Source of the DNA: Mobula hypostoma
Lineage: Eukaryota
Reading direction: 5' to 3'
DNA length: 64,000 bases
Assembly (NCBI RefSeq): GCF_963921235.1
Contig: NC_086097.1
Coordinates: 37,946,001-38,010,000 of the forward strand
Part shown: positions 1,756-58,136 of the stretch, piece by piece
How positions within the stretch are numbered: position 1 is the first letter of the stretch
How the letters are laid out: each line of letters starts with the position of its first letter
Translations under genes and position numbers: made by a program
The notes under the pieces: generated by a model
Seen by the model: the letters and a program-made list of their open reading frames with translations, nothing else
Told to the model about the DNA's origin: nothing
Databases searched by the model: none

Positions 1756-3670
1756 TTGTCCAGGAGGGGCAGCACCTCTGGTGAAGGGGCTTGTTGTTGT
1801 CCATTCTGCGGCAGCTCACTCACCTTTGGTCCGCACCAGACACTTTGCTCTCACCTATGGCTCCAAGTAATTACTTTGCCTCCAACTTTCACCCTGCCCT
1901 CAAGTTTACCTGGTCCATTTCCAACACTTCCCTCCCCTTTCTATATATTTCTGTCTCTATCTCTGGAGACAGCTTATCTACTGATGTCTACTATAAGCCT
2001 ACTGACTCTCACAGCTGTCTGGACTATTCCTCTTCTCACCCTGTCTCTTGCAAAAATGCCATCCCCTTCTCCACCTCCGTCTCCGCCGCATCTGCTGTCA
2101 GGATGAGGCTTTTCATTCCAGGACAAAGGAGATGTCCTCCTTTTTTAAAGAAAGGGGCTTCCCTTCCTTCACCATCAACTCTGCTCTCAAACGCATCCCC
2201 CCCATTTCACGCACATCTGCTCTCACCCCATCCTCCCGCCACCCCACGAGGAATAGGGTTCCCCGGTCCTCACCTACTGCCCCACCAGCCTCCTAGTCCA
2301 ACATATAATTTTCCGTAACTTCCGCCACCTCCAACAGGATCCCACCACTAAGCACATCTTTCCCTCCCCCTCTATCTCTGCTTTCCGCAGGGATCGCTCC
2401 CTACACAACTCCCTTGTCCATTCGTCACCCCCATCCCTCCCCACCGATCTCCCTCCTGGCACTTATCCTTGTAAGCGGAACAAGTGCTACACATGCCCTT
2501 ACACTTCCTCCCTCAGTACCATTCAGGGCCCCAGACAGTCCTTCCAGGTGAGGCGACACTTCACCTGTGAGTCGGCTGGGGTGATATACTGTGTCCGGTG
2601 CTCCCAATGCGGCCTTTTATATATTGGCAAGACCCGATGCAGACTGGGAGACCGTTTCACTGAACACCTACGCTCTGTCTGCCAGAGAAAGCAGGATCTC
2701 CCAGTGGCCACACATTTTAATTCCACGTCCCATTCCCATTCTGATATGTCTATCTACGGCCTCCTCTACTGTCAAGATGAAGCCACACTCAGGTTGGAGG
2801 AACAACAGCTTATATTCCGTCTGGGTAGCCTCCAACCTGATGGCATGAACATTGACTTCTCTAACTTCCGCTAATGCCCCACCTCCCCCTCATACCCCAT
2901 CCGGTATTTATTTATTTATATACACACATTCTTTTTCTCTCTCTCCTTTTTCTCCCTCTGTCCCTCTCACTATACCCCTTGCCCATCCTCTGGGTTTTTC
3001 CCCCCCTCCCCCTTTTCTTTCTCCCTAGGCCTCCTGTCCCATGATCCTCTCGTATCCCTTTTGCCAATCAACTGTCCAGCTCTTAGCTCCATCCCTCCCC
3101 CTCCCCTTCCCACTTTCAAATCTCTTACTAGCTCTTCTTTCAGTTAGTCCTGACGAAGGGTCTCAGCCCAAAACGTCGACTGTACCTCTTCCTAGAGATG
3201 CTGCCTGACCTGCTGCGTTCACCAGCAACTTTTGTGTGTGTTGCTTGAAATTCTAGCATCTGCAGATTTCCTCGTGTTTGCGCTCCAAGTAATTGTTTGC
3301 ATGTGACTGTGGCCACACCCCAGTACACTGCTTTGACAGGGAGGCAAAACCAGGCGAGGGTAGCTGGAAGACCTCATACCCTGGTGAAATAGGTGTGAAA
3401 CCAGCTCCAGCAGACTGGGTGGATGAGATTAACAGTGAGATCCAGTGGCCAAGAAGGTGATTCTGCAATGCTTTGTGGACAGTGAAGGCACAGAAGAAGT
3501 CGTGGTTATCCTCTGCAATGAAAGAAGACCCCAGTATGTGACGACTACTCGTACCACTTGACCTGCACTTCCAAGGTCGAGAGAGTCAAACTGTCCTAGT
3601 GCAATGACTTTTCCACTTTAAAACATCCCGCACAGGTTCATTGTCTTTGTCAGATACGACAGACAACCAA
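1756..3670 (+). mobile_element. Unclassified ~500-bp insert (probably non-LTR-derived) interrupted by a Penelope copy
   Basis: 1756-1872 joins 3295-3670 across the Penelope TSD; homologous uninterrupted sequence at about 48710-48890. Confidence 0.55.
1873..3281 (+). mobile_element. Penelope-like retroelement, 5'-truncated (RT C-terminus, GIY-YIG endonuclease, terminal repeat)
   Basis: ORF 2548-2874 has VIYCVRC..CGLLYIGKT..RLGDRFTEH (GIY-YIG); STDVYYKPTDSH RT-thumb motif upstream; perfect 13-bp TSD gctccaagtaatt at 1860-1872 and 3282-3294. Confidence 0.95.
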
Positions 3671-9011: not shown

Positions 9012-9937
9012 GAATTGAATTGATTTTACTTCTTACATCCTTCACAAACATGAGGAGTAAAAATCTTTATGTTATGTCTCAGTCTGTGCAACTTATAGTA
9101 ATTTGTAATAAATAGTATGTACAATAGAACAGTCAATATAGCTTAAAAATACTATTGTGTCAGCGTACATTAATCAGTCTGATGTCCTGGTGGAAGAAGC
9201 TGTCCCGGAGCCTGTTGGTCCTGGCTTTAATGCTGCGGTACTGTTTCCCAGATGGTAGCAGCAGGAACAATTTGGGGTGACTCAGGTCCCCAATGATCCT
9301 TCGGGTCTTTTTTACACACCTGTCACTGTAAATGTCCTGAATAGTGGGAAGTCTGCACCACTCTCTGCACAGTCCGGCGACTGAGGAAAGTACAGTTCCC
9401 ATACCAGGCAGTGATGCAGTGGGCTAGGATACTCTCAATTGTGCCCCCTTAGAAAGTCCTTAGGATTTGGAGACTCATGCTAAGCTTCTTCAATTGTATG
9501 AGGTGAAAGAGGCGCTGTTGTTCTTTTTTCACCACACAGCTGGTATGTACAGACCACGTGAGGTCTCAGTGATGTGTATACTGAGAAACTTGATCCATTG
9601 ATGTCAATAGGGGCTAGCCTGTCCACGTTCCTCCTGTAGTCCACAACCAGCTCCTTTGTTTTTGTGACATTAAGGGAGAGGTTATTTTCTTGACACCACT
9701 GTATCAGGGTGATGACTTCTTCTCTGTAGGGTGCCTCGTTATTTTTAGGGACAAGCCCGATCAATGTAATGTCATCTGCAAATTTAATTAACAGATTGGA
9801 GCTGTGGGTGGTGACACAGTCATGGTTATATAGAGAGTAAAAGAGGGGGCTTAGTACACACCCCTGAGGGGCTCCTGTGTTGAGGATCAGAGGGGCAGAG
9901 GTGAGGGAGACCACTCTTACCACTTGTCAGTGATCTG
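9012..9937 (-). mobile_element. Rex1/Babar-type LINE, 5'-truncated
   Basis: ORF 9480-9923 has GAPQGCVLSPL and KFADD RT motifs; (ATTCA)n tail at 9012. Confidence 0.92.
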
Positions 9938-10236: not shown

Positions 10237-10995
10237 ATTTGAATTGAATTGAATTGACTTTATTTCTTTACATCCTTCACATACATGAGGAGTAAAAATC
10301 TTTATATTACGTCTCTCTCCATCTAAATGTGCCATGTGCAATTATAGTAATTTATAATAGATAGAACAGTCAATGTAAAATAGAGTACACTCAAATCACC
10401 GTGAGTTCATCAGCCTGCTGGAAGAAGCTGTCCTGGAGCCTGTTGGTCCTGGCTTTTATGCTGCAGTACTGCTTCCCGGACAGTAGCATTTGGAATAGGT
10501 TGTGGTCGGGATGGTTTGGGTCCCCAATGATCCTACGGGCCCTTTTTACACATCTGTCCTTGTAACTGTCCTGAATCATGGGAAGTTCACATCTACAGAT
10601 GTGCTGGGCTGTCCGCACCACTCTCTGCACAGTCCTGTGATTAAGGGAGGTATAGTTCCCATACCAGGCAGTGGTGCAGCCAGTCAGGATGCTCTCAATT
10701 GTGCCCCTGTGGGAAGTTCTTAGGAATTGGGGGCCCATACCAAACTTCCTCAACTGACTGAGGTGAAACAGGTGCTGTTGTGCCTTTTTCACCACACAGC
10801 TGGTGTGTACAGACCACGTGAGGTCCTCGGTGATGTAGATGCCGAGGGACTTTAAACTGTTTATCCTCTCAACCCCAGATCCATTGATGTCAATAGGGGT
10901 TAGCCCGTCTCCATTCCTCCTGTAATCCACAACCAGCTCCTTTGTTTTTGCGACATTGAGGGAGAGGTTGTTTTCTTGACACCACTGTGTCAGTG
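10237..10995 (-). mobile_element. Rex1/Babar-type LINE, 5'-truncated
   Basis: 205-aa ORF 10391-11008 with WCQENNLSLNVAKTKELVVDYRR, IESILTGC.TAWYGN; (ATTCA)n tail; gagga on both flanks. Confidence 0.92.
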
Positions 10996-12439
10996 AGAGG
11001 AAAGGCATCCTTGCTGCTGAGGCAGTTCAGCAAATGTTCAGTAGAAGGCCTGACATATGAAGAGGTTGAGGTGATTGGACATATATTTCACCAGAGTTCA
11101 GAACAGTGAATGGCAATCGCATTAAACTTGTGAAATTGTAAGAGGATGGGACAAACTAATGTAGGTAGGATGATCTTTATGGCGAAATTTAGAACCAAGA
11201 GTCACAGACTTAAGATATGGGGTATGTGATTTAGGACAGAGATCGGGAGAAATTTTTTCAACGAAAAAATGACAAAGTTGTGGAATTCTCTATCACAGAA
11301 GGCAGTTGAAGCCAAATCCTTAATTATATGCGAAAACAACTCAGAAATTGTTCTAGTGGCTAAAGAGACTAAGGGATATCAGAAGAAGGCAGCAATATAT
11401 TACTGAATTTGGATGATCAAATATTGTAATGAAGCAGGCTTAGAGGGCCAAATGGCCTATTCCTACTCCTATTTTCTATGTTGATTCACTTGTTATCTGT
11501 CAAATCTGGCAGCTATATCCTTCAAGTTTCAGTTACTTCAGCAAGTGGTAGTCTGTCTACCCACTCTAAAGACAATGAAGACCACACCCAGAGTACATTC
11601 TGTGTTCGCTTCTCCTGAGTGCTGTTCAACATGGAGTTCTCCCAATTTTTCAGCTGAGAGGGAACAGTGTGGGTAATCAGGAGTATATTTCCAAGTCCAT
11701 TCTATTTCCAGAACATTGGCAAGTTGTATGCAGTTTCTTTTATACCTTATAACTTTTTAAGCAATCTGGGTTGCTACTGATCAAGGACCAGAAAAGTAAT
11801 AGAATGGAAGAAGCAGCTTCCCAATTTTGTCTGTACTTTATTTTCGGTTTCCTGATCATGAATATTTTAATAGGAAACTGACAAGTCTTTTTTTTGTCTG
11901 GGTGGGGGTGGGGTGGGGAGGAGGAGGGTTTAATAATGGGAATTGAAATAAATTGTCTTTTTTTTAATTCAATGCAGCCATATTTAGTACAGTTCATGAG
12001 CATTGCAAAGGTCCGAAAAAGGAAAATGTAAGATGGTTTCGTTCCTTGAACTTTCCACCTAGATATGTGGTGAAGGGAATTAAAAAAAAACTCCACCCAG
12101 ACAAAAGAAGGCTACAAAGGGCGTATCTCTTATTCCCGTCAAAATTCCACTAGACTAGTTCTGATGGGTGGGGCATGAAATGTAATGTGCAAATGCTACA
12201 AATCGGCTAATTTTCATCCCCAAGGAAAGACGTTAAACAAAGATTATCTGGGTTTCGGTTAGGTAACTGAATTGTTAAATAATTTATACGCAAGCAACTT
12301 CTTGTACAGTCAAGTATACAAGTTCAGCCATCGTAGTTTTTATTGCTTCAATAATCTTAAATACATTTATCACCTTTAAGCTTTCTTTATGGAAAACACA
12401 AAATATGAACATGTAGATTTAGTTATAAAGAGAATGATT

Positions 12440-20711: not shown

Positions 20712-22118
20712 AACCATATAACAATTACAGCATGGAAACGGGCCATCTCGGCCCTTCTAGTCCGTGCCGAACTCCTACTCTCACCTAGTCCCACCGACCT
20801 GCACTCGGTCCATAACCCTCCATTCTCTTCCTGTCCATATATCTATCCAATGTAACTTTAAACGACAACATCGAACCTGCCTCAACCACTTCTGCTGGAA
20901 GCTCATTCCACACAGCCACCACTCTCTGAGTAAAGAAGTTCCCCCTCATGTTACCCCTAAACTTTTGCCCTTTAACTCACAACTCATGTCCTCTTGTTTG
21001 AATCTCCCCCACTCTCAATGGAAAAAGCCTATCCACGTCAACTCTATCAATCCCCCTCATAATCTTAAACACCTCTATCAAGTCCCCTCTCAACTTTTTA
21101 CGCTCCAAAGAATAAAGACCTAACTTGTTCAACCTTTCTCTGTAACTTAGGAGATGAAACCCAGGCAACATTTTAGTAAGCCACCTCTGTACTCCCTCAA
21201 TTTTATTGACATCTTTCCTATAATTCGGTGACCAGAACTGTACACAATACTCCAAATTTGGCCTTACCAATGCCTTATGCAATTTCAACATTACATCCCA
21301 ACTCCTATACTCAATGCTCTGATTAATAAAGGCCAGCATACCAAAAGCTTTCTTCACCACCCTATCCACATGAGATTCCACCTTCAGGGAACTATGCACC
21401 ATTATTCCTAGATCCCTCTGTTCTACTGCATTCTTCAATGCCCTACCATTTACTATGTATGTCCTATTTTGATTAGTCCTACCAAAATGTACATTTTTCA
21501 GCATTAAACTCCATCAGCCATCTTTCAGCCCACTCTTTTAACTGGCCTAAATCTCTCTGCAAGCTTTGAAAGCCTACTTCATTATCCACAACGCCACCTA
21601 TCTTAGTATCATCTGCATACTTACTAATCCAATTTACAACCCATCATCCAGATCATTGATGTATATGACAAACAACATTGGACCCAGTACAGATCCCTGA
21701 GGCACACCGCTACACACCGTCCTCCAATCTGACACACAGTTATCCACCACTACTCTCTGGTGTCTCCCATCCAGCCACTGCTGAATCCATTTTACTACTT
21801 CGATATTAATGCCTAACGATTGAACCTTCCTAACTAACCTTCCATGTGGAACCTTGTCAAAGGCCATACTGAAGTCCATACTGAAGTCCATATAGACAAC
21901 ATCCACCGCCTTACCCTCGTCAACTTTCTTAGCAACCTCATCAAAAACTTCAATAAGATTTGTCAAATGTGACCTTCCATGCAGAAATCCATGTTGACTG
22001 TTCCTAATCAGACTCTGTCTATCCAGATAATTATATATACCATCTCTAAGAATACTTTTCATCAATTTACCCACCACTTGACGTCAAACTCACAGGCCGA
22101 TTATTGCTAGGTTTACTC
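20712..22118 (-). mobile_element. CR1 LINE, 5'-truncated, relatively young
   Basis: ORFs 21634-22077 ([24 protein letters not shown]) and 20977-21504 (LVRPNLEYCVQFWSP, LRGDLIEVFKIM). Confidence 0.95.
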
Positions 22119-37229: not shown

Positions 37230-39524
37230 AAGCAACACACATCAAATTTGCTGGTGAATGCAGCAGGCCAGGCAGCATCTCTAGGAAGAGTTACAGTCGA
37301 CGTTTGGGGCCGAGACTCTTCGTCAGGACTAACTGAAGGAAGAGCTGGTAAGAGATTTGAAAGTGGGAGATCCAAAATGATAGGAGAAAACAGGAGGGGG
37401 AGGGATGGAGCCAAGAGCTGGAGTTGATTGGCAAAGGGGATATGAGAGGATCATGGGACAGGAGGCCCAGGGAGAAGGAAAGGTGGGGGGGGGGAACCCA
37501 GAGGATGGGCAAGGGGTATAGTGAGAGGGACAGAGGGAGAAAAAGGAGAGAGAGAGCGAAAGAATGTGTGTATATTGTGATGAAAAACCAAGTTATCAGA
37601 AGATTGATGCTAATGAGAGAGAGATAAGGGAGACAATGGAGAAACGTTCAAAATGTTAATGAGAGAGGAGAGAGAGATAATGAAAAGAGACACAATTCAG
37701 AATATTGACAGACCGGTTGTTTTGAACCTGAACTGTTTGAAGTTTGATGGACAGGTGATACCCCAGCAGGGGGATAAAAAGAACAGGTTCGCTATGGCAC
37801 GACACACACCACGAGATCACGAGATAACGAGACCCTGGAAGAGCGGTGTGCCCCCACAAGTTGGTGGAAGTTTGGAGGTCTGGTTCGAGGGAACCGACCA
37901 TAGACTCACAGGGTGAAAAGGTACGATCGGCAGGAACCTGGTGTGTGTGTCCGTCCTTGCCTGGGTGCTGGGTTCACCGTGGAAGAACAGTCGTATCCAG
38001 AACGGAGGGGTCACAGTCGGTGACCACAGCGGGATAGAAGACATAAAAGGGTCCACCCGAAAGCCAACTGCGAAGAACATCAAAGGTCTGCTTGAATCAA
38101 AATTTGCATCCCCCTCCCCCCCCCAACAGCAATTACTGCGAACTGTACTAAGCAGAATTCTGTCACTTGAGACTGATCATTTTACCCCTAGACTGCGATA
38201 GAGCTTGGTTGATTCCTATTACCCTACTTCTGTGTACATGTGTGTTTTATCATTGCTAACCTGTTGCATTTATATCCTTATGATTAGAGTACTTATTTAC
38301 TTATTTCTTTAATAAAACTTTATTAGTTTCCAGTAATCCAGACTCCAACTAGTGGTCCATTACTGCTGGTTTGGCAACCCAGTTACGGGGTACGTAACAG
38401 TATATAAACAAATACCAGATGGCGTACGAAGGGGAGGTGGGGCATTAGCGGAAGTTTGAGAAGTCAATCTTCATGCCATCAGGTTGGAGGCTACCCAGAC
38501 GGAATATAAGGTGTTGTTCCTCCAACCTGAGTGTGGCTTCATCTTTACAGTAGAGGAGGCCGTGGATAGACATATCAGAATGGGAATAGGATGTGGAATT
38601 AAAATGTGTGGCCACTGGGAGATCCTGCTTTCTCTGGCGGACAGAGCGTAGATGTTCAGCAAAATGATCTCCCAGTCTGCGTTGGGTCTCGCCAATATAT
38701 AGAAGGCCACATCGGGAGCACCGGACGCAGTATATCACCCCAGTCGACTCACAGGTGAAGTGTCGCCTCACCTGGAAGGACTGTCTGGGGCACTGAATGG
38801 TAGTAAGGGAGGAAGTGTAAGGGCATGTGTAGCACTTGTTCCGCTTACAAGGTTAAGTGCCAGGAGGGAGATCAGTGGGGAGGGATGGGGTGGATGAATG
38901 GACAAGGGAGACACGTAGGGAGCGATCCCTGCGGAATGCAGAGAGAGGGGGGGAGGGAAAGATGTGCTTAGTGGTGGGATCCCGTTGGAGGTGGCAGAAG
39001 TTATGGAGAATAATATGTTGGACCCGGAGGCTGGTGGGGTGGTAGGTGAGGGCAAGGGGAACCCTATTCCTAGTCGGGTGGCGGGAGGATGGAGTGAGAG
39101 CAGATGTACGTGAAATGGGGGAGATGCGTTTGAGAGCAAAGTTGATAGTGGAGGAAGGGAAGCCCCTTTTTTAAAAAAAGGAGGACATCTCCCTCGTCCT
39201 GGAATGAAAAGCCTCATCCTGAGAGCAGATGCGGCGGAGATGGAGGAATTGTGAGAAGGGCGTGGCATTTTTTTGCCAATCAACTGTCCAGCTCTTGGCT
39301 CCATCCCTCCCCCTCCTGTCTACTCCTATCATTTTGGATCTCCTCCTCCCCCTCCCACTTTCAAATCTCTTACTAGCTCTTCCTTCAGTTAGTCCTGACG
39401 AAGGGTCTTGGCCCAAAACGTTGACTGTAACTCTTCCGAGAGATGCTGCCTGGCCTGCTGCGTTCACCAGCAACTTTGATGTGTGTTGCTTGAATTTCCA
39501 GCATCTGCAGAATTCCTTATGTTT
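37230..39524 (-). mobile_element. Penelope-like element with inverted terminal repeat, interrupted by a solo LTR
   Basis: GIY-YIG ORF 38445-38771; inverted terminal segment about 39270-39524; TSD acaaaagtggatt (37217-37229) / acaaaattggatt (39525-39537); sits in an old CR1. Confidence 0.93.
37576..38399 (+). mobile_element. Solo LTR (824 bp)
   Basis: TGT...ACA termini, 6-bp TSD GTATAT (37570-37575 / 38400-38405), TATA-like GATAAAAA near 37773, AATAAA at 38311. Confidence 0.88.
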
Positions 39525-44413: not shown

Positions 44414-46047
44414 CAGTGGTGCTAGAAAGTTTGTGAACCCTGTAGAATTTTCTCCATTTCTGCATATATATGACCTAAATTTGATCAGATCTTCACGTAA
44501 GTCCTAAAATTAGATAAAGAGAACCCCAATTAAATAAATAACGCAAAAAGCATTATACTTGTTCATTTATTCATTGAGAAGAAAATGGTCTAATATTGCA
44601 TGTATTTGTTGGAAAAAATTTTGTGAACCTTTTGCTTTCAGTAACTAGTGTGACTACACCCCCCCGCCCCCCAGCAGCCCCTTGAACAGCCAAATGTTTC
44701 CGGTAACTGTTGGTCAGTTCTGTACGTCGGCTTGAAGGAATTTTAGGCCATTCCTCCTTACAAAACTGCTTCAACTGTGGGATGTCAGTGGGCTTCCTTA
44801 CATGAACTGCTTGCTTCAGCTCCTTCCACAACATTCCTATAGGATTCAGGTCAGGACTTTGACTTGACCATGCCAAAACACAGATTTTCTTCTTTTTAAA
44901 CCATTCTGTTGATTTACTCTTGTCTTTTGCTTTATTGACTTGTTGCATTATCCAACTTCTCTTAAGCTTCAGGTCACAGACCGCTACCCTGATATTCTCC
45001 TGTAAGATACCTTGATACAATTTTGAATTCGTTGTTCCCTCAATGATTGTAAAATGTCTAGGCCCAGAGGCTGCAAAGCCGCCCTAAACCACGATGCTCC
45101 TTCCACCATGCTTCTCAGTTGGAATGAGGTTTTGGTGTTGGTGAGCAATGTCCTTTTTTCTGTAAACATAGTAATATGCATTTCTGCCAAAAAAGTTCAA
45201 CTTTTGTCTTATCTGCCCGCAAACATTGTTCCTGAAGCATTGTAGAACATCTAAGTAGTCTTTTCCAATCTTGAGACGTGCAGCAATGATTTTTTTTTTG
45301 GAGAGCAGTGGTTTCCTCCATGATGTCCCTCCATGTACGCCATTCTTCAGTGTTTTTCTTATAGTGGACATGTGAACAGAGATTTTAGAAAGTTCTGGAG
45401 ATTTCTGTAGGTCTTTTGCTGTTACCCTTGGATTCTTTTTCATCTCCTTCAGCATTGCATGTTGTACTCTTGGTGTGATCTTTGCAGGACACCCACTACT
45501 AGTGAGAGTAGCAACAGTACTGAGGTTCCTCCATTTGTAGACAATTTCTCTTGCTGTGGACTGTTGAACATTCAGGTCTTTGGAAATGCTTTTGGTCACC
45601 TTTTCCAATTTCATGCATCTCTACAATTATTCTTCCAAGGTCCTCTGAAAATTGTTTTGATCGAGGCATGGTGCACATGGAGATCTTTCTTGAGAAGAGC
45701 AGGCTCTGTCAGTAACCTGACTTTGTGTGCCTTTTTTTTTAATGGGACAGGGCACCTCTACAACCCACATCTCTAATCTCAGCTCCTTGATTGCAATACC
45801 ATACTCCAAGTAGCTTTTGTAGAAGGCATTATCCCAGAGGTTCACATACTTTTTCCAACAAATACATGTAATATTGGATCATTTTTCTCAATAAATAAAT
45901 GAAGAACTATAATGTTTTTGTGTTACTTATTTAATTGGTTTCTCTTTATCTAGTTTTAGGACTTCTGTGAAGATCTGATCACATGAGGACATATTTATGC
46001 AGAAATGGAGGAAGTTCTTCAGGGTTCACAAACTTTCGAGCACCACT
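44414..46047 (-). mobile_element. Full-length Tc1 transposon (IR-DR type) with frameshifted transposase
   Basis: About 210-bp TIRs (44414-44630 / 45838-46047) starting CAGTGGTGC, with inner repeats TTTGTGAACC; fragments 45084-45614 (HTH, KHGGRSIVV) and 44571-45020 (WSSQSPDLNPI). Confidence 0.95.
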
Positions 46048-54094: not shown

Positions 54095-55050
54095 AGGTCC
54101 TTTTGGGTCATAAAACAGTACAGCAGTGATAACCGAACCTTTGACCCAAACGGTCTGTGCAGACCACAGTCCTCACCCAGTTGGTCCCAATGCCCTGTGT
54201 TCAACCCCTGTCCCTCTAAGCCAGGTGTTCCCAACCTTTTCGTTTTATGCCGTGGACCAATACCATTAAGCAAGGGGTTCTGCTCTAAGCCCTTCCCCTC
54301 TACACAAACTATGCAAGTGCTTCTTGAATGATACTCTTGTACCTACCTCAACCACTTCATCTGCTGCTCATTCCATCTATTCATCACAATCTGCATGAAA
54401 AAGTTGTCCTGCAGTCCCTTTTAAATCTTTCTCTTCGCATCTTAAATCTATACCCTTAGTTTTTGACTCCACTACCCTGGCATCAGTGTATGTGTTAACC
54501 ACAAGGGGCAATGATCCGTGCACATTTACCTAGTCAAGATCATTTTTTTTCATATTGCATTCAAATCCTGTCTTGTTCAAAGCTCCATTTGAGACCTGAC
54601 TAGCAGAAGGTAACCTATCCTCTTAGTAGGATAAACCTGTTGGCTGATTCCAGTGCATGAGCTTCCTCCTTAATTAAGTGATCTAATACTGTTTGTAATG
54701 CTCAAAAAGTGGTCTTGCCAGTGTCCTATATAACTGAAGCATATCCTCTTTACTTTTAAACTCCCCAGCTAAGAAATTATAACATTCTCTTAGTTTTCCT
54801 AATTTGTGCATTATGGTTTTTTGTAAATCATACACGAGAACATCCAGATCCCTCTGAGCTCTGTAATCCCTCCCCATATAGGTAGTTTTTTTTTTGTTAT
54901 TCCTGCCAAAGTGGGTAATTTTTATCATCTCGACCCATACTTTTCCCAATTTGCTTTTCTAGAACTCACCTTAATCAGGCAATTTAGCAATCATACCTTT
55001 GAAACCTACACTCAAGTTACTTATGCAGATTATCAAAAGAGTGGACACTT
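54095..55050 (-). mobile_element. Degenerate CR1 fragments with a truncated hAT MITE at 54222-54282
   Basis: LQLYRTLARPLFE remnant; MITE left TIR CAGGTGTTCCC and perfect 8-bp flanking repeat ctctaagc. Confidence 0.7.
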
Positions 55051-56505
55051 GCTAATAAATTAAGTCCCTTTTATGACTATAGTAGCATTTTATCCTCTAC
55101 TTCCTGAGGAAGATAGATTTTTTTAACAACACAGAGAAAATGCTGGAGGAACTCAGCAGGCCAGGCAGTTTCTATGGAAAAGAGTATAGTCGATGTTTCG
55201 GGCTGAGGCCCTTCAGCAGGACTGGAGAAAAAAATGTGGAGTCAGAGTTAGAAGGTGGGGGGGGGGAAGAAATGCAAGGTAATGGGTGAAACCAGGAAGG
55301 GGAGGGGTAAAGCAAAGAGCTGGGAAGTTGTTTGGTGAAAGAGATACAGGGCTGGAGAAGGGGGAATCTGATAGGAGAGGATAGAAGGCCAAGGAAGGGA
55401 AAAGGTGAGGAGCACGAAAGGGAGGTGGTGGGCAGGTAAGGAGATAAGGTGAGAGAGGGAAAAGGGATTGGTGAAGGGTGGCGGGGGGGGGAGGCTATTA
55501 CTGGAAGTTCCAGAAATCGATGTTCATGCCATTCTTCGGAGGCTACCCAGATGGAACACAACGTGTTGCTCTCCAACCTGAGTGTAGCCTGATCATGACA
55601 GTAGAGGAGGCCATGGACTGGCATGTTGGAATGGGATGCAGAATTAAAATGGGTGGCCACTGGGAGACCCTGCTTTTATTGGTGGAAGGAACATAGGTGC
55701 TCAATGTAGCGGTCTCCCAATTTACATCAGGTCTCGCCGATGTATAAGAGGCAGCACCGAATACAGTAGATGACCCCAACAGACTCACGGAAGTGTCGCC
55801 TCAACTGGAAGGACTGTTTGATGCTCTGAATGGTAGTGACAGAGGAGGTGAAGGGGCAGTTATAGCACTTGCTTTGCTTGCAAGGATTAGTACCAGGAGG
55901 GAAATTGGTGGAGAGGGATGAATGGACAAGGGAGTCACATAGGGAGCGATCCCTGCAAAAAGCAGCGAGTTTGGGGTGGGGGAGGGAATGATGTGCCTGC
56001 TGGTGGGATCCCGCTGCAGATAGCAGAAGTTCCGAAGAATTATGGGCTGGATGCAGAGGCTGTTGGGGTGGTAGATGAGGACAAGAGGAACCCTATCCCT
56101 GGAGGGGTGGTAGGAGATGGAGTGAGGGCAGACGTATGTGAAATGGAAGAGATACGGTTGAGGGCGGTGTTGATGGTGGAGGAAGGGAAGTCCCTTTCTC
56201 TGAAGGAGGAGGACATCTCCTTTGTTCTGGAATGAAAAGCTACATCCTGAGAGCAGGTGGTGGTGACTGAGGAATTGAGAGAAGGGGATGAAATTTTTAC
56301 AAGTAACATGATGGGAAGAGGTATAGTCCAAAAAGCTGTGAGAGTCAGTGGGTTTGTAATAGACGTCAGTGGATAAGCTGTCTCCAGAGAAAGAGATTTC
56401 GAGAAAGTGGAGGAGATGTTGGAAATGAACCAGGCAAAAATGTGAGGGCAGGTTGGAAGTTGGTGACAAGGTTGATGAGGTCCACATGGGTGCAGGAAGC
56501 AGCAT

Positions 56506-56919
56506 AACACATAGGAGCAGAATTAGTCCATTTGGCCCATTGAGTCTGCTCCACCACTTAATCATGGCTGATCCATTTTTCCCCTCCTCAGTTCCACTCC
56601 TCCCTGTAACCTTTGATGCCATGTCCAATCAAGATGCCTGTGGTAATAAATTTCACAAATTCACCATCCTCTGGCTAAAGAAATTTCTCAGCATCTCTGT
56701 TTTAAATGGATGCCCCCCTATCCAGAGGCTGTGCCCTCTTGTACTAGAGTCCCCCACCATGGGAAACATCCTTTTCCACATCTACTTTGTCTAGGCCTTT
56801 CAACATGTGAAAGGTGTCAATGAGATCCCCCCTCATCCTTCTATATTTCAGCAAGTACAGACCCAGAGCAATCAAACATTCCTCGTATGATAACCCTTTC
56901 ATTCCTGGCATCATCCTTG
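56506..56919 (-). mobile_element. CR1 3' end (part of chimeric insertion)
   Basis: TRMMPGMKGLSYEE.L.ALGLY...RRMRGDLI and CR1 3' UTR. Confidence 0.9.
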
Positions 56920-57273
56920 TTTCATGACCTGTGTAACGCAAAACAATCAATGCAGAAAACTGAAGGTTTAACCAACCTGCTGGATATTGACTGCATGAAG
57001 TCACCCACTGATCAGAATAGTCAATTAGTTACTGGTTTGTGTTCCAACCATTGTATCCGTGTCTACAATAAACAAATTCTGACTCTCCTTAAACAGTTCC
57101 AAGGCCACTTTGCTCCTATTAGTGGGATAAGATTTGCAGAAACCAACAGCCATTTACTATTCTCTGCTTCACATGGTGGGACGCTGAAATGCTGGGATGT
57201 GGCTTTTTCTAGCGTGGAGGCAGTGCAGATTTACAAAGGCTATCCGAATAAAACATTTATCAGCTTTGATATT
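56920..57273 (+). pseudogene. WDR89: WDR89 N-terminal coding fragment (118 codons, no start or stop)
   Basis: LLDIDC..LVTGLCSNHCIRVYNK..GIRFA..LFSASHGGTLKCWDV..VQIYKGYPNKTFISFDI is colinear with recalled human WDR89 (LLGIDT..LVAVLCSNGSIRIYDK..GVRFA..VYSACTDGTVKCWDA..VQLFKGYPSNIFISFDI). Confidence 0.9.
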
Positions 57274-58136
57274 ATAAGGCTTTGTAAGGCCCTGGTGAGA
57301 CCTCACCTTGAGCATCAGTGCAGTTGTCGATGTAGTGTAGGAAAAGTTGGGGCATGACACCAATGTAGGTTTGGAACATAGACTGCTCCATGTAGCTGAC
57401 AAAAAGGGAGGCATAACTGGGACCCATGTGAGTGCCCACAGCTACACCTTTTGTTTGAAGGAAGTGGGAGGAGCCAAAGGAGAAATTATTAAGAGAGAGG
57501 ACAAGAACCGCCTGGTGGAGAGGAGCTGGTTGAGTCTGGTGTCCAGAAAGAAATGGAGAGCTTTGCGGCCTTCCTGGTGGGGATTGGAGGTGTATAGGGA
57601 CTGGACATAAGATGCTCGGTGCCAGGGAACTTGAAATCATTGAAAAAATCAAGAGTGTGTGAAATGTCATGGATGTAGGGAGGAAGAGACCGAATTGGGG
57701 GGGATAAAATGGAGTTGAGTTATGCAGATATAAATTCAGTGGGGCAGGATCAAGTAGAAACAGTGGGTCCAACTAGACAGGCAGGTTTGTGGATCCTGAG
57801 TAGGAGATAGAAATGGGAGGTGCGGTGTGAGGGAACTATGTGGTTGGTGGCAGTGGATGTGAGATCCCCAGAGTTGTGTTCCTTCTGGATATTCTGGTTT
57901 ATCCCACATCCTAAAATGTGCAAAATGGTACATTAATTGGCCGTTGTAAGTAGCCCCATAACGTGTAGGTGAGTTGAGAATGTAATTGGTGGGGGGCGGG
58001 GGAGGGTGGGAGCAGTAAAATATGGCATTATTGTATAATTAGTGTAGTTGGTTGGTATGGCTCAGTTGGTCCCATGCTATATTTCTCTATGAACAAAATC
58101 TGATGGTGAATTTGTATTTCTGACTGGTCATATTTT

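What the first reader, a model, noticed from the sequence alone, without database searches (positions are those of the whole stretch)
56501..57315. Host WDR89 coding fragment captured inside an inverted CR1 insertion nested in a Penelope element
Seen: the Penelope RT is broken by an 805-bp insert bounded by AGCAT (56501-56505 / 57311-57315). The insert consists of a CR1 3' end (-, 56506-56919), 118 open codons of WD40 sequence (+, 56920-57273), and about 40 bp of CR1 on the + strand (KALVRPHLE). That short piece lies upstream of the first in CR1 ORF2. Known: 5'-inverted LINE insertions arise by twin priming, and LINE RTs can switch templates. Inference: one CR1 integration event copied WDR89 sequence at the inversion junction. 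Cellular-gene capture is much less documented for CR1 than for L1. The WD40 frame reads in frame into the CR1 piece and is sense to the host gene.
Basis: partly seen in the sequence, partly recalled or inferred. Interest (0 to 1): 0.8.

Follow-up and report, generated by a model that had tools for sequence, protein, structure and literature searches.

The report
WDR89 fragment inside inverted CR1 insertion
An old, dead jumping-gene (CR1-type LINE) insertion in a ray genome carries 356 bases of the cell's own WDR89 gene at its internal inversion point, a rare natural record of this kind of LINE copying a cellular gene, but a one-off relic with no sign of function.

Summary
An 805-bp insert (56506-57310) splits a Penelope-like reverse-transcriptase element and is flanked by a real 5-bp target-site duplication: in 9 of 11 uninterrupted copies of the host repeat both flanks map onto the same pentamer. 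The insert has three parts:
- CR1-type LINE 3' end on the minus strand, 56506-56920.
- 356 bp of WDR89 coding sequence on the plus strand, 56919-57274 (CDS nt 21-376).
- 36-nt CR1 ORF2 stub on the plus strand, 57275-57310.

In intact CR1 copies the stub lies 70-72 nt upstream of where the 3' piece starts, which is twin-priming geometry. All junctions show microhomology.

The parent is the intact WDR89 gene 3.25 Mb upstream on the same chromosome and strand (88% identical). No other WDR89-derived copy exists, and both junctions are unique in the genome.

Contigs from a second species label bridge the right junctions, and a third carries the decayed fragment, so the event is ancient. The open frame is chance.

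Best reading: one CR1 integration with twin priming and a switch of template to WDR89 RNA. RNA versus DNA origin cannot be told. Known mechanism for L1; new for a CR1-type LINE. Modest interest.

The parts
56501..56505 (.). Left copy of the 5-bp target-site duplication (AGCAT)
   Evidence: in 9 of 11 uninterrupted copies of the host repeat both flanks map to the same 5 bases. The last 3 bases could also be read as the CR1 tail (3-nt overlap).
56506..56920 (-). CR1-type LINE 3' piece. It runs from ORF2 ..TRMMPGMKGLSYEE.. to the element's 3' end, with an 8-bp terminal hairpin stem and a tail cut to ..TATGTGTT.
   Evidence: 45 matches listed from 11222 first-look candidates, 76-90% identity apart from the window itself; the CR1 similarity ends at 56920-56922; family copies end ..TATGTCTTATG(G..); predicted hairpin, -20.3 kcal/mol, z -1.39 (not significant alone); lacks a 50-nt stretch that most fetched copies have.
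56919..56920 (.). 2-nt microhomology (GT) at the inversion junction, readable as either CR1 or WDR89
   Evidence: CR1 similarity runs to 56920 and WDR89 homology starts at 56919.
56919..57274 (+). Captured WDR89 coding sequence, CDS nt 21-376 (residues 7-126), sense on the plus strand, decayed
   Evidence: 356 bp, 88.2% to G000:C1:34753656-34754011; the parent is WDR89; only 2 WDR89-like places in the genome; 42 differences, 24 of 118 residues changed, dN/dS 0.55, codon positions 11/14/17.
57275..57310 (+). Inverted CR1 ORF2 stub (..R/LCKALVRPHLE), sense on the plus strand. Similarity to CR1 copies runs on into the duplicated AGCAT, where CR1 has GAGTAT.
   Evidence: maps 70-72 nt upstream of the start of the 3' piece in L014 and L010; matches of other CR1 copies mostly start at 57275 or 57277 (two start at 57268 and 57271) and mostly end at 57312-57316 (five run on to 57318-57338).
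57311..57315 (.). Right copy of the target-site duplication (AGCAT). Its minus-strand 3' end ATGCT can pair with CR1 RNA AGUAU (4 Watson-Crick pairs plus 1 G-U).
   Evidence: two Penelope-like matches start exactly at 57311.
55730..56505 (-). Downstream half of the host Penelope-like element (RT C-terminal part ..ASCTHVDL.., ..GDSLSTDVYYKPTDSHS.., and a GIY-YIG-like end ..CLLYIGET)
   Evidence: 69% over 58 aa to an uninterrupted copy; 63%, E 2e-36, to window ORF 2257-2871, which hits Pfam GIY-YIG at E 2.1e-4.
57311..57772 (-). Upstream half of the host Penelope-like RT (..GVAVGTHMGPSYASLFVSYMEQ..LFLHYIDNCTDA)
   Evidence: RVT_1 only at E 0.093; 69-80% to 7 copies over roughly 250 nt, plus 76% over 144 nt in L016 and a 32-nt match in L019.
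56824..57357 (+). 177-codon stop-to-stop frame running through antisense CR1, WDR89, the CR1 stub and antisense Penelope. A by-product, not a gene.
   Evidence: staying open is expected in 24-36% of neutral simulations; no protein of 72-231 residues in the public collection matches it.

Best explanation
A single target-primed integration of a CR1-type LINE into a Penelope-like element, 5'-inverted by twin priming, picked up a piece of WDR89 transcript on the way.

Steps:
1. Staggered nicks 5 bp apart at AGCAT.
2. The plus-strand 3' end primed on the CR1 RNA tail (3-nt overlap). It copied the last 415 nt.
3. The minus-strand 3' end ..ATGCT annealed inside the same kind of CR1 RNA at AGUAU, about 70 nt upstream of where the first cDNA ended. 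It copied about 36 nt.
4. The reverse transcriptase then moved to a WDR89 RNA and copied CDS nt 376 back to nt 21.
5. The 3' ends of the two cDNAs paired through 2 nt (GT/AC) and were filled in.

The product was dead on arrival and has decayed neutrally. It predates the split of at least two, probably three, sampled species.

Shown: anatomy, target-site duplication, geometry, microhomologies, parent gene, uniqueness, presence in other species. Inferred: the order of steps, and that the WDR89 template was RNA.
For: - The target-site duplication encloses the whole composite: 9 of 11 host-repeat copies show both flanks on one pentamer.
- The CR1 stub lies 70-72 nt upstream of the 3' piece in the 2 of 11 CR1 loci where it matches full-length. 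It is inverted and abuts the other duplication copy, which is the twin-priming layout.
- The primer-2 overhang matches CR1 at 4 of 5 bases, with the fifth a G-U pair. Chance of at least 4 of 5 at a fixed place is about 1.6%.
- A 5-bp duplication fits the 3-5 bp peak reported for L2/CR1-clade LINEs (PMC4245944, passages read).
- The WDR89 piece has the orientation of the inverted arm, as a continued cDNA must.
- Its ends show 2-nt and 0-2-nt overlaps.
- Only the 356 bp are shared with the parental locus, with no wider duplication.
- There are only two WDR89-like places in the genome.
- Both junctions are unique: 1 of 40 scored matches runs through each.
- Read contigs bridge WDR89/CR1/duplication/Penelope with 0 differences in run X1 and 4 in 434 in run X5, which has another species label.
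- Template switching by LINE reverse transcriptases is documented for L1 (U6/L1 and inverted U5/L1 chimeras: PMC4476161, passages; mRNA/L1 chimeras: preprint 10.1101/2025.02.02.635956, passages). It has been proposed for CR1 in the birth of a SINE (PMC5729268, passages).
Against: - RNA origin is not shown. The captured piece lies wholly inside the single coding exon of the parent, so there is no lost intron and no poly(A) to prove it.
- The parent lies only 3,249,263 bp away on the same chromosome and strand. The chance of being within 3.25 Mb either side in 3.476 Gb is about 0.19%. Random sampling of cellular mRNAs does not predict this; a local DNA template does.
- The acceptor site is internal to the mRNA, unlike the classic 3'-end jumps onto small RNAs.
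- In cell-culture assays a CR1/L2-clade LINE with 5-bp duplications gave no 5' inversions. The authors suggested a 5-nt overhang is too short to prime (PMC4245944).
- A crude, consensus-free estimate puts the CR1 piece's own branch at about 5%. My rough reckoning gives about 8-10% for the WDR89 piece. The CR1 estimate is biased low because the copies compared were its nearest matches.
- The left junction has only 29-30 CR1-side letters in read contigs.
- In run X12 the contig that carries the fragment stops matching exactly at 57274. This is unexplained.
Confidence: 0.6

Rival explanations
1. Same single CR1 twin-priming event, but the WDR89 piece was copied from chromosomal DNA rather than RNA. 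It would be templated 'filler' made while the two cDNA ends were being joined by a microhomology-driven repair or replication switch. The template would be the WDR89 locus 3.25 Mb away.
For: - The parent is on the same chromosome and strand, 3.25 Mb away. The chance of that proximity is about 0.19%.
- Both ends of the piece have short or no microhomology (2 nt; 0-2 nt).
- Nothing in the piece (no splice junction, no poly(A)) demands RNA.
Against: - 356 bp is long for templated filler at end joining (my own knowledge, not tested).
- The orientation is the one an ongoing cDNA would give, though that is a 1-in-2 chance.
- A reverse transcriptase was demonstrably at work on that very arm, 36 nt earlier.
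- Proximity could equally reflect nascent WDR89 RNA nearby in the nucleus.
Confidence: 0.2
2. Ordinary twin priming on an RNA that was already a WDR89-CR1 fusion. Possible sources are an earlier chimeric retrocopy, RNA ligation or trans-splicing. In that case no template switch happened during this integration.
For: - WDR89 and the CR1 stub are co-oriented and in frame.
- Pre-formed chimeric RNAs are one of the routes discussed for L1 chimeras (10.1101/2025.02.02.635956).
Against: - No other WDR89-derived copy exists in this genome, by DNA or by protein search: 2 places, the parent and this one.
- The parental gene is an intact 396-codon frame with no CR1 at codon 126.
- The junction is not at an exon end, because the parental ORF is continuous there.
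- Reading in frame is a 1-in-3 chance.
Confidence: 0.1
3. Separate nested events (an inverted CR1 first, a WDR89 fragment inserted later at its inversion point), or an assembly chimera.
For: - The crude age estimates of the CR1 piece (about 5%) and the WDR89 piece (about 8-10%) differ.
- The left junction is not formally bridged by read contigs, with 29-30 letters against the tool's 31.
Against: - The WDR89 piece has no duplication or other insertion hallmark of its own.
- It would have had to land exactly at the inversion junction.
- The right-hand junctions are bridged in two runs of different species labels. A 140-letter contig with 0 differences runs 56891-57030.
- Both junctions are unique in the assembly.
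Confidence: 0.05
4. The 177-codon open frame (56824-57357) is an exapted, selected coding sequence.
For: - The frame is open and reads through WDR89 into the CR1 stub.
- Two low-depth contigs of a run guessed to be RNA cover 57066-57446 with 0 differences.
Against: - 24 of 118 residues are changed, including positions invariant in 7 WDR89 orthologues.
- Differences are spread 11/14/17 over the codon positions.
- dN/dS against a gene under constraint is 0.55.
- 24-36% of neutral simulations stay open.
- The copy in run X12 carries a 1-nt insertion that breaks the frame.
- The public collection holds no matching protein of 72-231 residues.
- There is no start context or splice evidence.
Confidence: 0.03

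Closest known systems
Twin-primed 5'-inverted L1 insertions (Ostertag and Kazazian 2001; cited in PMC4245944 and PMC4476161, whose passages I read; the original paper was not read)
   Same: - One target-site duplication encloses the whole insert.
- The 3' segment is direct and the upstream segment inverted.
- There is a small loss (about 70 nt) between them.
- There is microhomology at the second priming site and at the inversion junction.
   Different: - The LINE is CR1-type, not L1.
- The duplication and overhang are 5 nt, not about 15.
- The inverted arm is only 36 nt of LINE followed by 356 nt of a cellular gene.
- In cell culture a CR1/L2-clade element gave no inversions at all (PMC4245944).
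L1 chimeric retrocopies made by template switching or twin priming. These include U6/L1 and inverted U5/L1 chimeras (PMC4476161) and mRNA/L1 chimeras, some with antisense mRNA 'more consistent with twin-priming' (preprint 10.1101/2025.02.02.635956).
   Same: - A cellular RNA-derived piece is fused to LINE sequence within one duplication.
- The piece is antisense to the LINE 3' part.
- There is complementarity between the target overhang and the internally primed RNA.
   Different: - Here the second primer started on LINE RNA and only then moved to the cellular sequence, giving a three-part product.
- The captured piece is an internal part of a coding exon, not a small RNA or first exons.
- The LINE clade is different.
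Tripartite chimeric pseudogene from double template jumps in Magnaporthe (PMC2104539; title and abstract start seen in the listing only)
   Same: The product has three parts and is ascribed to template jumps during LINE reverse transcription.
   Different: - It is a fungal LINE.
- No inversion is mentioned in the title or the abstract start that I saw. That all parts are co-oriented is my assumption; the text was not read.
CR1-mobilised SINE birth by template switching (PittSINE; PMC5729268, passages read)
   Same: A CR1 reverse transcriptase is proposed to move from a CR1-tailed RNA to a nearby cellular RNA during target-primed reverse transcription.
   Different: - The acceptor there is a tRNA, co-oriented, and it gave rise to an active family.
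- Here the acceptor is a protein-coding sequence on the inverted arm, and the product is a single dead copy.

Membership tests
Twin-primed 5'-inverted LINE insertion | One target-site duplication flanks the whole composite | tested here: met
   AGCAT stands on both sides. In 9 of 11 uninterrupted host-repeat copies both flanks map to the same 5 bases.
Twin-primed 5'-inverted LINE insertion | The direct segment reaches the element's own 3' end at one duplication copy. The inverted segment comes from further upstream in the same element and abuts the other copy. | tested here: met
   The 3' piece ends with the family's tail at 56506. The stub maps 70-72 nt upstream of the 3' piece in L014 and L010, is inverted, and abuts 57311.
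Twin-primed 5'-inverted LINE insertion | Complementarity between the second-strand overhang and the LINE RNA at the internal priming site, and microhomology at the inversion junction | tested here: met
   ATGCT-3' pairs with CR1 AGUAU, 4 of 5 plus a G-U. There is a GT overlap at 56919-56920. Each is short; the chance of the first alone is about 1.6%.
LINE chimeric retrocopy by RT template switching | Sequences of two different transcripts are fused in one orientation inside one duplication | tested here: met
   WDR89 (56919-57274, +) and the CR1 stub (57275-57310, +) are co-oriented within the duplication.
LINE chimeric retrocopy by RT template switching | The captured part derives from processed RNA (lost introns, poly(A), or a transcript end) | not testable with these tools
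   The piece lies inside the parent's single coding exon, and the parental ORF is continuous. It starts about 45 nt inside the exon and ends mid-exon.
CR1-clade LINE | Reverse-transcriptase phylogeny or family-specific ORF2 profile | tested here: inconclusive
   The 212-residue ORF2 C-terminus of copy L014 has no Pfam hit at E <= 0.01. 'CR1' rests on my recall of the ..LVRPHLEYC.. and ..PGMxGLSYEERL.. motifs. The clade was not placed on a tree.
CR1-clade LINE | 3' end with a hairpin and a short-unit repeat tail instead of poly(A), and short (3-5 bp) duplications | tested here: met
   An 8-bp stem GGAGCAGA/TCTGCTCC lies just before the tail (z -1.39, not significant alone; the stem letters are also seen in the printed copies). 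The tails of copies repeat GTCTTATG-like units. The duplication is 5 bp, against a reported 3-5 bp peak (PMC4245944). That a hairpin plus octamer is a CR1 hallmark is recalled (Suh 2015, not read).
Penelope-like element (the host repeat) | Reverse transcriptase followed by a GIY-YIG endonuclease | tested here: inconclusive
   RVT_1 hits only at E 0.093 for the window copy, and there is no hit for an uninterrupted copy. The downstream ORF is 63% identical (E 2e-36) to window ORF 2257-2871. That ORF hits GIY-YIG at E 2.1e-4, 21.9 bits against a cut-off of 22.6. A YIDD-type motif and ..LLYIGET are visible.
WDR89 (origin of the captured piece) | Closest relative is the WDR89 orthologue, not another WD40 protein | tested here: met
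   The parental ORF is 100% identical to the NCBI WDR89 of Mobula hypostoma. Nearly all named hits among the 120 listed are called WDR89 or WD repeat(-containing/domain) 89; the few others are generic or mis-merged names. The fragment is 80% identical to it and shares its lineage-specific residues. Only 2 places in the genome match.

The most novel reading that the evidence does not exclude
The captured template was chosen by nuclear proximity. A CR1-type reverse transcriptase started its second cDNA from a mere 5-nt overhang. It then jumped to a nascent WDR89 transcript, or to the WDR89 DNA itself, 3.25 Mb away on the same chromosome. If general, inversion-junction fillers of LINE insertions would be a fossil record of which loci lay near an integration site. 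They would also show a route by which 'stringent' LINEs such as CR1, thought unable to retrocopy cellular mRNAs, still duplicate pieces of genes.
Probability: 0.2. Interest if true: 0.55.

Novelty: new variant of a known kind. Interest (0 to 1): 0.33.

Why it matters
CR1-type LINEs recognise their own 3' end. They are therefore held to make few or no gene retrocopies (review PMC5470649, passages read; PMC3747384). This insertion shows a way round that limit. Once reverse transcription has begun on CR1 RNA, the enzyme, or the repair that follows, can still copy part of a cellular gene.

It is also a natural example of a 5' inversion in a LINE with a 5-bp duplication. A cell-culture study did not observe this for a related element and thought it unlikely (PMC4245944).

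The nearness of the source gene (3.25 Mb, same chromosome) hints at template choice by proximity. That could be tested genome-wide.

Against this, it is one ancient, decayed, non-functional copy, made by a mechanism well known for L1. It changes no picture on its own.

Tried and rejected
- **Selection on the open frame: rejected.** dN/dS is 0.55, codon positions are 11/14/17, and 24-36% of neutral simulations stay open. The X12 copy has a frameshift.
- **Wider segmental duplication of the WDR89 locus: rejected.** Only 356 bp of the 3.35-kb parental locus match the window outside common repeats.
- **A master WDR89-CR1 copy in this genome: not found.** There are 2 places by DNA and 2 by protein, from 17 candidates scored.
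- **Search for the fragment's product among public proteins of 72-231 residues:** 3 candidates, none at E <= 1e-5. Longer and shorter lengths were not searched.
- **Expression:** no RNA holder is listed. Run X9 is only guessed to be RNA. Its two contigs (57066-57247 and 57219-57446, depth about 3) may be DNA or intron RNA. No conclusion is drawn.
- **'Skips 816/824' joints in runs X1 and X5 at 56504 to 57321/57329:** each has only 20-21 letters on the shorter side and lies in a repeat of thousands of copies. They are most likely other Penelope-like copies, not an empty allele, and are not used.
- **Left junction in reads:** the X1 contig 56891-57030 (0 differences) and the X12 contig both start at 56891. 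That gives 29-30 letters on the CR1 side, under the tool's 31-letter rule, so the junction is not counted as bridged.
- **Pfam naming of the two repeats:** no hit at E <= 0.01 for an uninterrupted Penelope-like ORF or for a CR1 ORF2 C-terminus.
- **Host gene:** Pfam on 47 of the 53 frames of at least 110 codons found only transposon domains. Three of the six left out had been scanned. No exon was identified, and short exons were not searched.
- **Earlier notes of this scan:** nothing for this place, this sequence or these words.
- **Age match of CR1 and WDR89 pieces:** only a crude consensus-free estimate is available, and it is biased by the choice of nearest copies. Inconclusive.
- **Literature on the CR1 inversion survey:** I did not see the survey of vertebrate L1/L2/CR1/RTE junctions by Ichiyanagi and Okada (2008). 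It is not in the library and may already report CR1 inversions. No supplements of any paper were opened.
Full report
**Where and what.** The window is G000:C1:37946001-38010000 of a 3.48-Gb, 200-contig assembly. It is dense with transposon remains. The finding lies in a Penelope-like element on the minus strand. Its reverse-transcriptase frame reads ..LFLHYIDNCTDA up to 57311 and resumes ..ASCTHVDLINL.. from 56505 downward. Between them lie 805 bp (56506-57310).

**The duplication is real.** AGCAT stands at 56501-56505 and 57311-57315.
- I fetched 11 other copies of the host repeat with the left flank and laid both flanks on them.
- In 9 of 11 the two flanks are contiguous, and the two AGCAT copies fall on the same five bases.
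- The other two (L025, L026) have no upstream half.
- All six copies printed show a single pentamer between ..TG and GCTTCC..: GTGCT in 4, GTGTT in 1, GCGCT in 1.
- So the host element was whole, and 5 bp of it were duplicated by whatever came in.
- The last bases of each copy can also be read as CR1 sequence (see below), so the duplication could be 3-5 bp.
- Five base pairs is the length reported as typical of L2/CR1-clade LINEs (PMC4245944, passages read).

**The three parts and their borders.**
- *Minus-strand LINE 3' piece, 56506-56920.* It has thousands of relatives: 11222 first-look candidates, and the 45 listed are 76-90% identical apart from the window itself. It encodes ..TRMMPGMKGLSYEE... 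It ends with the family's 3' end, an 8-bp stem just before a short tail. In the genome search with an 80-mer across the left junction, 39 of 40 scored matches stop at 56920-56922. Only the window runs through.
- *WDR89 piece, 56919-57274.* BLAST of the parental locus against the window gives one non-repeat match: L002 1500-1855 against 56919-57274, 356 bp, 88.2%.
- *Plus-strand CR1 stub, 57275-57310.* In the search with a 111-mer across the right junctions, only the window runs through. Of the other 39 scored matches, 37 are CR1 copies. They mostly start at 57275 or 57277 and mostly end at 57312-57316. The other two are Penelope-like copies starting exactly at 57311.
- I call the LINE 'CR1-type' from its ORF2 motifs (recalled), its hairpin-plus-repeat tail and its short duplication. 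Pfam did not name it and I did not place it on a tree.

**Twin-priming geometry.**
- In the two CR1 copies where the stub matches full-length, it maps 72 nt (L010) and 70 nt (L014) upstream of the first base of the 3' piece. The order is ..LYKALVRPHLEYC..[gap]..FTRMIPGMKG...
- So the upstream segment is inverted, abuts one duplication copy, and is separated from the direct segment by a small loss. This is the layout that twin priming predicts.
- Where the stub meets the duplication, CR1 copies read GAGTAT and the window reads GAGCAT. The minus-strand end ..ATGCT-3' left by the second nick can therefore pair with CR1 RNA AGUAU, by four Watson-Crick pairs and one G-U.
- At the other end, the CR1 tail ..TATGTCTTATG overlaps the target by three bases.
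- At the inversion junction, CR1 (..ACAAGG..) and WDR89 (..GAAAC) share two bases, 56919-56920.

**The captured gene.**
- The 354-nt core has exactly two places in the genome: itself, and G000:C1:34753657-34754010 on the same strand, 88% identical.
- That locus holds an intact 396-codon frame. Its 388-residue product is 100% identical to the protein NCBI names WD repeat-containing protein 89 isoform X1 [Mobula hypostoma]. Nearly all named proteins among the 120 listed are WDR89 orthologues.
- A protein-level search of the whole genome again finds only the parent and the fragment, which covers residues 7-126 at 78%.
- The fragment shares residues that are peculiar to this ray's WDR89 (for example ..TDQNSQ....LCSNH....NSHLL..). 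It keeps a few older states that the parent has since changed. It therefore left the WDR89 lineage after that lineage split from the other sampled rays and sharks.

**Decay.**
- Fragment and parent differ at 42 of 354 sites (28 transitions, 14 transversions; K2P 0.131).
- The differences are spread 11/14/17 over the codon positions, and 24 of 118 residues are changed. dN/dS is 0.55. That is what a neutral copy compared with a constrained gene gives.
- Random substitutions at 30-42 sites leave the frame open in 36-24% of trials. The '118 open codons', and the 177-codon frame 56824-57357 around them, therefore need no explanation.
- Reading in frame into the CR1 stub is a 1-in-3 chance.

**Is it an assembly artefact, and how old is it?**
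- Logan contigs of four coded runs were laid on 56201-57620 at a threshold of 90%.
- Run X1 (organism A) has a 345-letter contig on 57001-57345 with 0 differences. It bridges WDR89/CR1, CR1/duplication and duplication/Penelope.
- X1 also has a 140-letter contig on 56891-57030 with 0 differences. This has only 29-30 letters on the CR1 side, under the tool's 31-letter rule.
- Run X5 (organism B, another species label) has a 434-letter contig on 57001-57434 with 4 differences. The composite is therefore shared by a second species.
- Run X12 (organism C) has a 2425-letter contig on 56891-57274 with 32 differences and one inserted base that breaks the WDR89 frame.
- Of X12's 23 listed differences, 12 equal the parental state and 11 are its own. 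At 19 or more of the 42 sites where window and parent differ, it goes with the window.
- I read X12's contig as the orthologue of the captured fragment in a third species. About two thirds of the decay would predate that split.
- Its match ends exactly at 57274, and the contig runs on unlike the window. This stays unexplained (note).
- X1 may be the sample the assembly came from, so it is not independent. X5 and X12 are.

**Mechanism.** The simplest account is one CR1 integration.
- The first cDNA copied 415 nt from the CR1 3' end.
- The second cDNA was primed by the 5-nt overhang on CR1 RNA about 70 nt further upstream. It ran 36 nt and then continued on WDR89 sequence from CDS nt 376 to nt 21.
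- The two cDNA ends were joined through two bases.
- The orientation of the WDR89 piece is the one this demands.
- Template switching and twin priming on foreign RNAs are documented for L1 (PMC4476161; preprint 10.1101/2025.02.02.635956). Switching has also been proposed for a CR1 enzyme in SINE birth (PMC5729268).

**What is not shown is that the WDR89 template was RNA.** The piece lies inside the parent's single coding exon. It starts about 45 nt inside the exon, so no intron loss can be seen.

Against a random mRNA, the parent lies only 3,249,263 bp away on the same chromosome and strand. Being within 3.25 Mb either side in 3.476 Gb has a chance of about 0.19% (a post hoc figure). This favours either a DNA template used during repair or a nascent transcript close by in the nucleus. 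I give the RNA-switch reading 0.6, DNA filler 0.2, a pre-formed chimeric RNA 0.1 and the rest 0.1.

**Comparison with what is known.**
- My searches were 'twin priming'+CR1 (10 papers), 'twin-priming'+CR1 (2 papers), template switching+chimeric retrogenes+LINE (18 papers), CR1+retrogenes+microsatellite+hairpin+target-primed (11 papers), and CR1+template switching+mRNA+chimeric+retrocopy (33 papers).
- In the listings, and in the passages I read, none describes a CR1-clade insertion with a 5' inversion or with a captured coding fragment.
- One paper mentions an unresolved U6/CR1-like case in turkey (PMC4476161).
- One cell-culture study saw no 5' inversion for a CR1/L2-clade element and argued that a 5-nt overhang is too short (PMC4245944).
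- Reviews state that CR1's need for its own 3' end limits gene retrocopying (PMC5470649; PMC3747384).
- The 2008 survey of vertebrate LINE junctions by Ichiyanagi and Okada is not in the library and was not seen. It may bear on the novelty of CR1 inversions. No supplements were opened.

**Verdict.** It is a new variant of a known kind, namely twin priming plus template capture, here in a CR1-type LINE with a 5-bp duplication. It is preserved as one ancient, decayed, non-functional copy. Interest is modest. The one feature that could raise it is the closeness of the source gene, which a genome-wide survey of inversion-junction fillers could test.

Noticed in passing
G000:C1:34753636-34754799 (L002/L027) versus window 56919-57274: The parental WDR89 gene lies only 3,249,263 bp upstream on the same chromosome and strand as the captured piece. 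The chance of being within 3.25 Mb either side in a 3.476-Gb genome is about 0.19%.
   Followed up: partly
window 56891-57274 (run X12): A 2425-letter contig of a third species label carries the decayed WDR89 fragment (32 differences, and a 1-nt insertion behind 57049). It stops matching exactly at the WDR89/CR1 junction and runs on for about 2 kb unlike the window.
   Followed up: partly
window 2257-2871 (+), 38448-38852 (-): Two further Penelope-like copies have frames that hit Pfam GIY-YIG at E 2.1e-4 and 4.3e-4, just under the curated cut-off.
   Followed up: partly
window 44574-45083 (-) and 45087-45620 (-): Remains of a Tc1/mariner-type transposase: DDE_3 at E 2.6e-6, and HTH_Tnp_Tc3_2 at E 3e-9.
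   Followed up: no
window 9483-9926 (-), 21637-22083 (-), 10394-11026 (-), 54683-54958 (-): Other LINE scraps are present: two RVT_1 frames (E 1.3e-9 and 2.7e-17), a frame hitting ALKBH8_N (E 1.8e-7), and a frame reading ..LYRTLARPLFEHY.., which resembles the CR1 ORF2 motif of the stub.
   Followed up: no
L014 (G000:C82:12709787-12713266), about 1001-2230: Another CR1 3' end abuts a Penelope-like reverse transcriptase just upstream of its YIDDC motif. It is a second nesting of the same two repeat families.
   Followed up: no
window 56506-56919 versus L004-L014: The window's CR1 3' piece lacks a 50-nt stretch that most of the 11 fetched copies have. Seven other genome copies are 89-90% identical over its first 284-288 nt, then match only weakly after a gap or not at all. 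This suggests subfamilies that differ in the 3' region.
   Followed up: no
L002 about 1456 (24 nt upstream of the WDR89 start codon): A likely splice acceptor (..TTTAAG|AT..) precedes the main start codon. This fits the N-terminal extension of NCBI isoform X1. The whole 388-codon reading frame sits in one exon, which is why intron loss cannot be used to test RNA origin.
   Followed up: partly
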